Shown here piece after piece: positions 7,484-8,310 of a stretch of DNA of 64,000 bases. Made by a program: the position numbers and the translations under genes. The notes under the pieces are model-generated. The model was not told the DNA's origin. It saw only the letters and a list, made by a program, of their open reading frames with translations, and ran no database searches. Source of the stretch: Leucoraja erinacea (lineage: Eukaryota); contig NC_073391.1 in the NCBI RefSeq assembly GCF_028641065.1, positions 20,212,001 through 20,276,000 of the forward strand. The letters run 5' to 3'. The stretch's first letter is position 1. Each line of letters starts with the position of its first letter.

Positions 7484-7558
7484 AATTGCTGTTAAGAATG
7501 GACAGGATCCCCATGGCTAACTGCAAGGAACTGTGCACACTGGAAGTTCATTAACTCA
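7484..7558 (+). other. TIAL1: Candidate poison exon (S-IAVKNGQDPHG-stop) in TIAL1 intron 5
   Basis: ttattttacag acceptor; TAA at 7518-7520 in frame with exon 5; weak GT at 7559 or 7562 followed by a long U tract. Confidence 0.7.
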
Positions 7559-8310
7559 GTTGTAGTTTTTTTTTCTCATTTCTATTTATTCTCTTTTTTA
7601 TAAATTTATTAGACTTGATTGTTAACATTTTAATGTGCTCTATATAGTGCGAATTTCGTATTCCCAATCCTATTGACGTGCTTACGAATCCTATGTAAAT
7701 GTTGTTCGTACTGGTGTGCTTAGTATTGTTTTAGTTTCATATTCATTTTCTAAATTTCTGAAAGTCTCAATTTTTCAAAATTTACAGCTGCCCACAGTCC
7801 AAAAAGAGGGTAGAGAATTGACCATACCACGAAAAATAAAGAATTCAGTTAACAGGCGATGTATGCCTTTTAATTCCTATTTTTTTTCTCTTTTCTGAAT
7901 TTTTATATTTCAATTATCTGTGTGGCTAGGTAGAACACGCATTTTAAAGGGTCTATATAGAAATGCATGGTTAAGGAAAATTGGAAACTTGTATTTGTAC
8001 TGAAGACTTTCTCAGTTTAGTGGCAGTGAAGGTCTGTGTTTTTAAAAACTATTGAGTTCATGGTTTCCAGTTCAATATAATAGGTGAAACCAAGCTCAGG
8101 ATACCAGAGTTTGCATGTTTGCTATTTATTGCTACATGGAAAGTTAAGTTATAACAAAAGGATAGAACAATTAATTATGTTATGGTGGGATTATAATAAT
8201 CCCTTTTTGTTTCAAAAAAGACGTGCTGACAATACAGTGTGTGGTTCCTTTTTATTTTGTTCAAGGGTGTTTTACCTATTTTACTGATTAACTTGTATCT
8301 ATTTTCACAG

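What the first reader, a model, noticed from the sequence alone, without database searches (positions are those of the whole stretch)
7484..7600. Ancient TIA-family autoregulatory poison exon: weak 5' splice site followed by a U tract
Seen: splicing after exon 5 gives FGRIS-IAVKNGQDPHG-stop. The candidate donors (TCA|GTTGTA at 7559 or GTT|GTAGTT at 7562) are weak and are followed by T9 and a further U-rich run. Known: TIA1/TIAR activate weak donors followed by U-rich tracts, including on their own pre-mRNAs. From memory, a truncated human TIA1 isoform ends FGRIS-VSLKNGQNCPG-stop, which aligns residue for residue. Inference: this feedback exon predates both the TIA1/TIAL1 duplication and the chondrichthyan-osteichthyan split.
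Basis: partly seen in the sequence, partly recalled or inferred. Interest (0 to 1): 0.7.

Follow-up and report, generated by a model that had tools for sequence, protein, structure and literature searches.

The report
Ancient paired poison exons in TIAL1
This skate gene for the splicing factor TIAL1 carries two stop-containing extra exon sequences that its sister gene TIA1 shares; they match a self-limiting switch already known in mammals, likely work the same way here, and likely predate the duplication that made the two genes.

Summary
The gene is skate TIAL1 (TIAR). Splicing exon 5 to the acceptor at 7484 adds 11 residues and a stop (7518-7520). Both candidate donors are weak and are followed by a very U-rich tract. 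The TIA1 paralogue in the same genome keeps both blocks in the same intron (80% and 85%). Database isoforms carry the matching tails in TIA1 and TIAL1 of amniotes and in teleost TIAL1, with paralogue-specific letters, so both exons predate the duplication and the shark/bony-vertebrate split. Teleost gene models point to 7562 as the donor. Exon A corresponds to human TIA1 exon 6A, whose TIA-driven inclusion and decay are described in mammals. Inclusion, TIA dependence and decay in skate were not shown: no reads could be laid. Added here: two RBFOX-type words shared by both paralogues. This scan noted the same pair before from the TIA1 side (e1-8848249, e1-8025186). Verdict: known mechanism, new deep-age member; modest interest.

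The parts
941..1028 (+). TIAL1 exon 5 (first part of RRM2, ends FGRIS); donor at 1029
7450..7581 (+). Conserved block A (acceptor, exon A, donor region), shared with TIA1 on G000:C35
   Evidence: blastn 80% over 132 nt, E 2e-24; alignment A1
7484..7561 (+). Exon A, stop-containing cassette, 78 nt with donor 7562 (75 nt with donor 7559); counterpart of human TIA1 exon 6A
   Evidence: database tails; PMC4286123
7518..7520 (+). In-frame TAA of exon A
7559..7563 (+). Two weak candidate donors (GT at 7559 and 7562); 7562 preferred
   Evidence: U1 match 3/11 and 5/11; wrasse, sardine and cod models
7566..7607 (+). U-rich tract after exon A (T9 plus further runs); predicted TIA1/TIAL1 binding site
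   Evidence: snake TIAL1 read-through FFSHFYLF fits it
7788..7860 (+).
   Evidence: block 7755-7912 is 85% to the paralogue, E 6e-44; tails CPNSKMMVEN and CPQPKKG in the database; MDARVV models
7861..7906 (+). Donor of exon B (6/11 U1 match) and its U-rich tract; first 25 intron bases identical in the paralogue
7964..7979 (+). 16-nt word starting with TGCATG (RBFOX-type element), identical in the paralogue
   Evidence: 2 of 1000 controls reach 16 nt
8108..8120 (+). 13-nt word around a second TGCATG, identical and colinear in the paralogue
8311..8386 (+). TIAL1 exon 6 (DARVVK...SKL); donor at 8387

Best explanation
7484-7561 is the first of two stop-containing cassette sequences in intron 5 of skate TIAL1, the counterpart of human TIA1 exon 6A, and it likely works as a negative-feedback poison exon. 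Shown: acceptor, in-frame stop, weak donors, U-rich tract, conservation in the TIA1 paralogue, and matching isoform tails in bony vertebrates. Inferred from mammalian work: when TIA1 plus TIAL1 are abundant they bind the U tract and recruit U1 snRNP through U1C to the weak donor (most likely 7562), and the exon is included. The stop then lies upstream of six further junctions, so nonsense-mediated decay removes the mRNA. Exon B (7788-7860) is a second switch of the same build. Because both genes carry both cassettes, each protein would limit itself and its paralogue. Both cassettes were present in the single ancestral gene before the TIA1/TIAL1 duplication, which preceded the split of cartilaginous and bony vertebrates. 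RBFOX proteins may set the threshold.
For: Anatomy: the only 4 of 3626 GT in the window with 27 or more T downstream belong to these two exons. Apart from coding exons and dispersed repeats, these are the only colinear blocks that blastn finds between the two loci. Among 513 stored proteins, 30 have an A-type tail (20 TIA1-type, 10 TIAL1-type) and 7 a B-type tail. Paralogue-specific letters run across lineages: x-A in TIAL1 versus x-S-L in TIA1 for exon A, VEN-stop versus KKG for exon B. Orthology rests on the tree and on gene neighbours. Conservation continues past the stop: 27 of 27 codon-compatible bases in snake TIAL1. Seven shark and skate TIAR records start MDARVV, which the end of exon B joined to exon 6 would give. 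Literature: TIA1 or TIAR overexpression activates stop-containing exons on both pre-mRNAs (PMC4385921); the mouse Tia1 NMD isoform rises on Tia1 overexpression and Upf1 knockdown (PMC3967051); U1C recruitment (PMC2766253).
Against: No read evidence from this species, and none of the 30 A-type records comes from a cartilaginous fish. Both donors are very poor. In skate TIA1 the tract after exon A is weaker (52% T, longest nearby run 4). Full-length TIA-1 overexpression did not induce exon 6A in colon cancer cells, and the 144-aa protein was detected there (PMC4286123). In mouse ES cells autoregulation was not significant at steady state (PMC3967051); the passages read do not say which Tia1 exon was assayed. 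The sardine model P0053 includes the exon in frame without a stop. The MDARVV junction is not unique to 7861: intron 5 has 43 AT-GT sites, two with a better U1 match. In the tree the TIAR clade has 85/99 support and chondrichthyan TIA1 does not group with tetrapod TIA1.
Confidence: 0.75

Rival explanations
1. It is a real poison exon, but its inclusion is set mainly by other factors (RBFOX proteins, signalling) or the region acts through intron retention; TIA feedback matters only on strong overexpression.
For: TGCATG-centred words shared by both paralogues. Rbfox2 suppresses a Tia1 NMD isoform, and autoregulation appeared only on overexpression plus Rbfox2 knockdown (PMC3967051). [quoted passage not shown]
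Against: The weak-donor-plus-U-tract design is the TIA signature and occurs twice in both genes. TIA1 and TIAR overexpression switch on such exons in both genes (PMC4385921).
Confidence: 0.13
2. The exon is kept because it makes a short protein (RRM1, part of RRM2, 11-residue tail; 134 or 151 aa here) that acts as an antagonist, like human sTIA-1.
For: sTIA-1 protein was detected and blocked full-length TIA-1 binding to VEGF-A mRNA (PMC4286123). The KNGQ core and the stop position recur in skate and amniotes.
Against: Bases after the stop and in the intron are as conserved as the coding part. Records from snake, cod, crow and a marsupial are frameshifted, wrasse reads through and sardine stays in frame, so the peptide end is not fixed; some of these may be annotation errors. 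Exon B gives an unrelated tail.
Confidence: 0.06
3. The similarity between the skate paralogues comes from gene conversion, so the exons need not predate the duplication.
For: Block B (85%) is as similar as the best coding exons (74-88%); chondrichthyan TIA1 falls next to TIAR in the tree with weak support (84/61).
Against: Skate TIAL1 tails share diagnostic letters with amniote and teleost TIAL1, and skate TIA1 tails with amniote TIA1. Most of the 7-kb introns do not align. Both amniote paralogues carry both exons.
Confidence: 0.03
4. The blocks are DNA elements (enhancers) or RNA structures, and the exon reading is incidental.
For: No reads from this species; very weak donors.
Against: Conservation starts at the acceptor and ends just past the donor in both blocks; spliced isoforms are recorded in other vertebrates; 0 Rfam matches in 1029-12700.
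Confidence: 0.03

Closest known systems
Human TIA1 exon 6A / sTIA-1 (PMC4286123, passages; first described by Le Guiner et al. 2001, PMID 11514562, not held, title and citing passages only)
   Same: Same intron (after the FGRIS exon), same frame, 11 added residues then a stop, alignable DNA (16 of 21 to a printed siRNA target).
   Different: Here in TIAL1 of a cartilaginous fish; 78 (or 75) nt against 66 nt; which skate GT corresponds to the human donor is not settled; splicing not shown here.
Stop-containing TIAR/TIAL1 alternative exons induced by TIA1 (PMC4385921, passages and supplementary legend; Le Guiner 2003, PMID 12533540, not held, content recalled)
   Same: Weak donor plus U-rich stretch, premature stop, auto- and cross-regulation; TIAL1 records end IAHKNGQDLEG or CPNSKMMVEN, matching exons A and B.
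   Different: The published exon maps (5a, 6a, 8a, 11a) are pictures that I could not see, so name-for-name mapping to A and B is not tested; no counterpart of 8a or 11a shows up between the skate paralogues.
Poison-exon feedback in RNA-binding protein paralogues (PTBP1/2, hnRNPD/DL, hnRNPL/LL, SR proteins; review PMC11062102, passages)
   Same: Unproductive splicing coupled to NMD, with cross-regulation between paralogues; TIAL1 is listed there as autoregulated.
   Different: That review stresses rapid gain and loss of poison exons among paralogues; here two homologous cassettes persist in both paralogues.
Rbfox2 threshold control of Tia1 autoregulation (PMC3967051, passages)
   Same: TGCATG elements near a TIA-family NMD cassette.
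   Different: Mouse binding was mainly upstream of the exon; the paralogue-shared skate words are downstream of both cassettes; upstream GCATG words exist in both genes but do not align.

Membership tests
TIAL1 (TIAR) orthologue | RRM plus Q-rich protein grouping with TIAR; RGS-domain gene downstream | tested here: met
   377 of 380 covered residues identical to skate TIAR P0304; TIAR clade 85/99; RGS part of fused record P0023 hits 58101-58148 and 62220-62345
TIA1 exon 6A-type poison exon | Lies in the intron that splits RRM2 after FG(R/K)IS | tested here: met
TIA1 exon 6A-type poison exon | Sequence homology to the known exon and its 11-residue tail | tested here: met
   30 of 513 stored proteins carry A-type tails; human siRNA targets place at 7503 and 7510, 16 of 21 each
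TIA1 exon 6A-type poison exon | In-frame premature stop well upstream of later exon junctions | tested here: met
   stop 7518-7520; seven exons downstream
TIA1 exon 6A-type poison exon | Weak donor followed by a U-rich stretch | tested here: met
   (simple U1-complement count, not a trained splice model)
TIA1 exon 6A-type poison exon | Exon is spliced into mRNA in this species | tested here: inconclusive
   no reads could be laid; no chondrichthyan A-type record; only indirect support for exon B
TIA1 exon 6A-type poison exon | Inclusion rises with TIA1/TIAR and needs the U tract | not testable with these tools
   needs a minigene or perturbation data
TIA1 exon 6A-type poison exon | Isoform is degraded by NMD | not testable with these tools
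   predicted from stop position only

The most novel reading that the evidence does not exclude
A whole control module (two TIA-activated poison exons plus RBFOX elements) was inherited intact by both TIA1 and TIAL1 from the gene that existed before the early vertebrate duplication, and both copies have worked as one shared dosage circuit for more than 400 million years; the module may also exist in lamprey and hagfish.
Probability: 0.45. Interest if true: 0.5.

Novelty: new member of a known kind. Interest (0 to 1): 0.33.

Why it matters
The mechanism is known. What is added is age and architecture. Poison exons of splicing-factor paralogues are described as gained and lost quickly (PMC11062102), yet here two homologous cassettes survive in both paralogues from skate to amniotes. 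The skate pair shows which bases matter (acceptor, bases after the stop, donor, U tract, RBFOX words), which gives ready targets for minigene tests and for antisense tuning of TIA1/TIAL1 levels. Nine literature searches (judged from listings) showed no paper stating this shared, pre-duplication origin, but the two primary papers are not in the library.

Tried and rejected
Reads: the run search listed 24 runs, none on record as RNA ('no RNA holder listed'), and no reads could be laid on the exon, so inclusion and donor choice in skate stay open. Primary papers PMID 11514562 and 12533540 are not held. PMC4267661 and PMC9318959 held only reference-list mentions; bioRxiv 2020.05.20.107375 lists TIA1 as auto- and cross-regulated without evolutionary data (passages). 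In the supplement of PMC4385921, 14 of 19 pages are pictures, so its exon maps were not seen; part 1 of 2 was read. Rfam: 0 matches in 1029-12700. Search for non-vertebrate tails: of 127 new proteins from the profile search plus P0375, 84 had the RRM2 motif and none had an A- or B-type tail; truncated isoforms are rarely annotated, so this says little. No lamprey or hagfish record was among the listed hits. A third TIA paralogue in the genome: 2 matches among 3 candidates. T9 as evidence by itself: rejected, 7 such runs in the window. The ATG formed by exon B plus exon 6 as a real start for a shortened protein: judged an annotation by-product, because TIA1 exon 6 starts with T and forms no ATG. 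Fixing the human donor by counting back-translated marsupial and crow read-through records: ambiguous, not used.

Full report
Setting. The window is G000:C15:20212001-20276000. Its first 17 kb hold exons 5-12 of a TIA-family gene on the + strand. An exon of it hits ray and shark TIAR first (98%, 90%). Its exon pieces are identical to skate TIAR record P0304 at 377 of 380 covered residues and sit in the TIAR clade (85/99). An RGS-domain gene follows, as in fused squirrel record P0023. The gene is TIAL1. The genome holds one other close TIA gene, on C35 (2 matches of 3 candidates). That gene is 393 of 395 identical to skate TIA1 P0330 and has the same neighbour as mammalian TIA1. The tree does not join chondrichthyan and tetrapod TIA1 into one clade, so TIA1 orthology rests on gene order and record names.

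Observation. Exon 5 ends in FGRIS at 1028. The acceptor at 7484 adds IAVKNGQDPHG and a stop at 7518-7520. GT stands at 7559, 7562 and 7565, followed by T9. The first two match the U1 end at 3 and 5 of 11 positions; 18 constitutive donors of both genes match at 6-8 (one mis-picked row dropped). This is a plain complement count with a recalled consensus, not a trained model. T fills 68-70% of +7..+46, against 20-52%. Only 4 of 3626 GT in the window reach 27 T there, and they are 7559, 7562, 7565 and 7861.

A second exon. The GT at 7861 closes a 73-nt stretch from an acceptor at 7788 that adds CPQSKKRVEN and a stop at 7819-7821. A DNA search of the genome with 7340-7920 returned two blocks in TIA1. 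Whole-locus blastn shows 7450-7581 (80%, E 2e-24) and 7755-7912 (85%, E 6e-44) as the only colinear matches besides coding exons and dispersed repeats. In TIA1 they lie in the same intron, in the same order, 964 nt before exon 6 against 827 nt here. The TIA1 versions give ISLKNGQDFHG-stop and a 71-nt frameshifting exon. The 25 intron bases after donor B are identical in both genes, while the tract after exon A is weaker in TIA1 (52% T).

Other vertebrates. Among 513 stored proteins, 30 end in an A-type tail. Twenty are TIA1-type (VSLKNGQNCPG and variants in mammals, birds and a lizard) and ten TIAL1-type (IAHKNGQDLEG in turtle and birds; variants in snake, wrasse and cod). Seven have a B-type tail (CPNSKMMVEN in pig and ptarmigan TIAL1, CPQPKKG in finch TIA1). 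These are annotation records, some unnamed, and none of the A- or B-type records comes from a cartilaginous fish. Skate TIAL1 shares the Ala at tail position 2 and the VEN-stop end with bony-vertebrate TIAL1; skate TIA1 shares SL and KKG with amniote TIA1. So the exons split by paralogue, not by species, which argues against gene conversion. It places both before the duplication, and the duplication before the split of cartilaginous and bony vertebrates (over 400 million years; date from own knowledge). That the duplication was a whole-genome event is my recollection and was not tested. Lamprey and hagfish could not be examined.

Which donor. Wrasse P0138 runs from exon A into LPKL, which fits the start of exon B at 7788 (10 of 12 bases). 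It has one residue more before that joint than the 7559 donor would give. Sardine P0053 likewise has one extra residue before DARVV. Cod P0335 and snake P0285 read through into the U tract in register with the window. These inferences from peptides favour 7562 and a 78-nt exon; they are not skate reads. For exon B, 10 of 513 records start MDARVV, seven of them from sharks and skates. That start needs an exon ending in AT joined to exon 6, as donor 7861 gives. Intron 5 has 43 such sites, two with a better U1 match, but 7861 has the most U-rich tail of the 12 best listed and lies in the conserved block.

What is under selection. Snake TIAL1 is compatible with 27 of 27 window bases across and after the stop, and with the U tract. 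Several lineages show frameshifts or read-through in the tail. This points to selection on the RNA, not on the peptide. Downstream of exon B the two longest words shared by the paralogues include two centred on TGCATG (16 and 13 nt). Two of 1000 resampled controls reach 16 nt, and 1 of 300 reaches the local alignment score. TGCATG is modestly enriched near the cassettes in both genes (p 0.017 and 0.033, uncorrected).

Mechanism and literature. TIA proteins bind U-rich tracts after weak donors and recruit U1 through U1C (PMC2766253, passages). Overexpressed TIA1 or TIAR switch on stop-containing exons in both pre-mRNAs (PMC4385921, passages and supplementary legends; figures not seen). Human exon 6A is 66 nt and gives 11 residues and a stop (PMC4286123, passages). 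A mouse Tia1 NMD isoform rises with Tia1 overexpression and Rbfox2 loss (PMC3967051, passages). The skate stop has seven exons downstream, so decay is predicted by the usual junction rule (own knowledge). [quoted passage not shown] The original 2001 and 2003 papers were not available; only their titles and citing passages were seen.

Limits. No reads could be laid on the region, so inclusion, donor choice, TIA dependence and decay in skate are inferred.

Novelty. The switch is known in mammals. Nine searches (listings only) showed no paper on its presence in cartilaginous fish or its shared origin in both paralogues. This scan noted the pair earlier from TIA1 loci (e1-8848249, e1-8025186, unchecked notes; I had reached the same reading before that call). 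The RBFOX-type words were not found in earlier notes. Verdict: real, a new member of a known kind, interest 0.33.

Noticed in passing
window 7788-7860 and G000:C35:14105678-14105608 (-): Second cassette (exon B): 73 nt with an in-frame stop in TIAL1, 71 nt and frameshifting in TIA1; a possible GC donor at 7856 and a GT at 7810 are kept in both paralogues.
   Followed up: yes
window 7964-7979, 8108-8120, 8237-8249: Three colinear exact words shared with the TIA1 intron; two are centred on TGCATG (RBFOX-type; the motif name is recalled and agrees with a title), the third has no assigned binder.
   Followed up: partly
window 7074 and 7292: Two more GCATG words upstream of exon A; the paralogue also has two upstream, at other distances, with no alignable flanks.
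   Followed up: partly
window 7695: A GT between the two cassettes with a better U1 match (7 of 11) and 21 of 40 T downstream, outside the conserved blocks; could be a cryptic donor extending exon A.
   Followed up: no
window 58101-58148 and 62220-62345 (+): Exons of an RGS-domain gene downstream of TIAL1, found with fused record P0023 (RGS10 is its neighbour in mammals, recalled); the GC-rich stretch at 30001-32000 may be its promoter.
   Followed up: partly
L009, near G000:C15:20204830-20204990: The alternative 3' splice site of exon 3 that adds 17 residues (TIARa versus TIARb) is kept in skate.
   Followed up: no
L008, G000:C35:14086000-14091400 (-): The gene after skate TIA1 matches the non-RRM part of fused sheep record P0111, so TIA1 has the same neighbour as in mammals.
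   Followed up: partly
window 2064-2162, 6458-6627, 23127-23231, 27132-27487: Short dispersed repeats with many copies on both loci and both strands, probably SINEs.
   Followed up: no
literature, PMC13648420 (passages): TIA1 rises after TIAL1 knockout and this needs NMD; the paper reads it as transcriptional adaptation and never uses the words 'poison' or 'autoregulat'. Relief of the TIA1 poison exons is an untested alternative, though their promoter knockout result argues against it.
   Followed up: no
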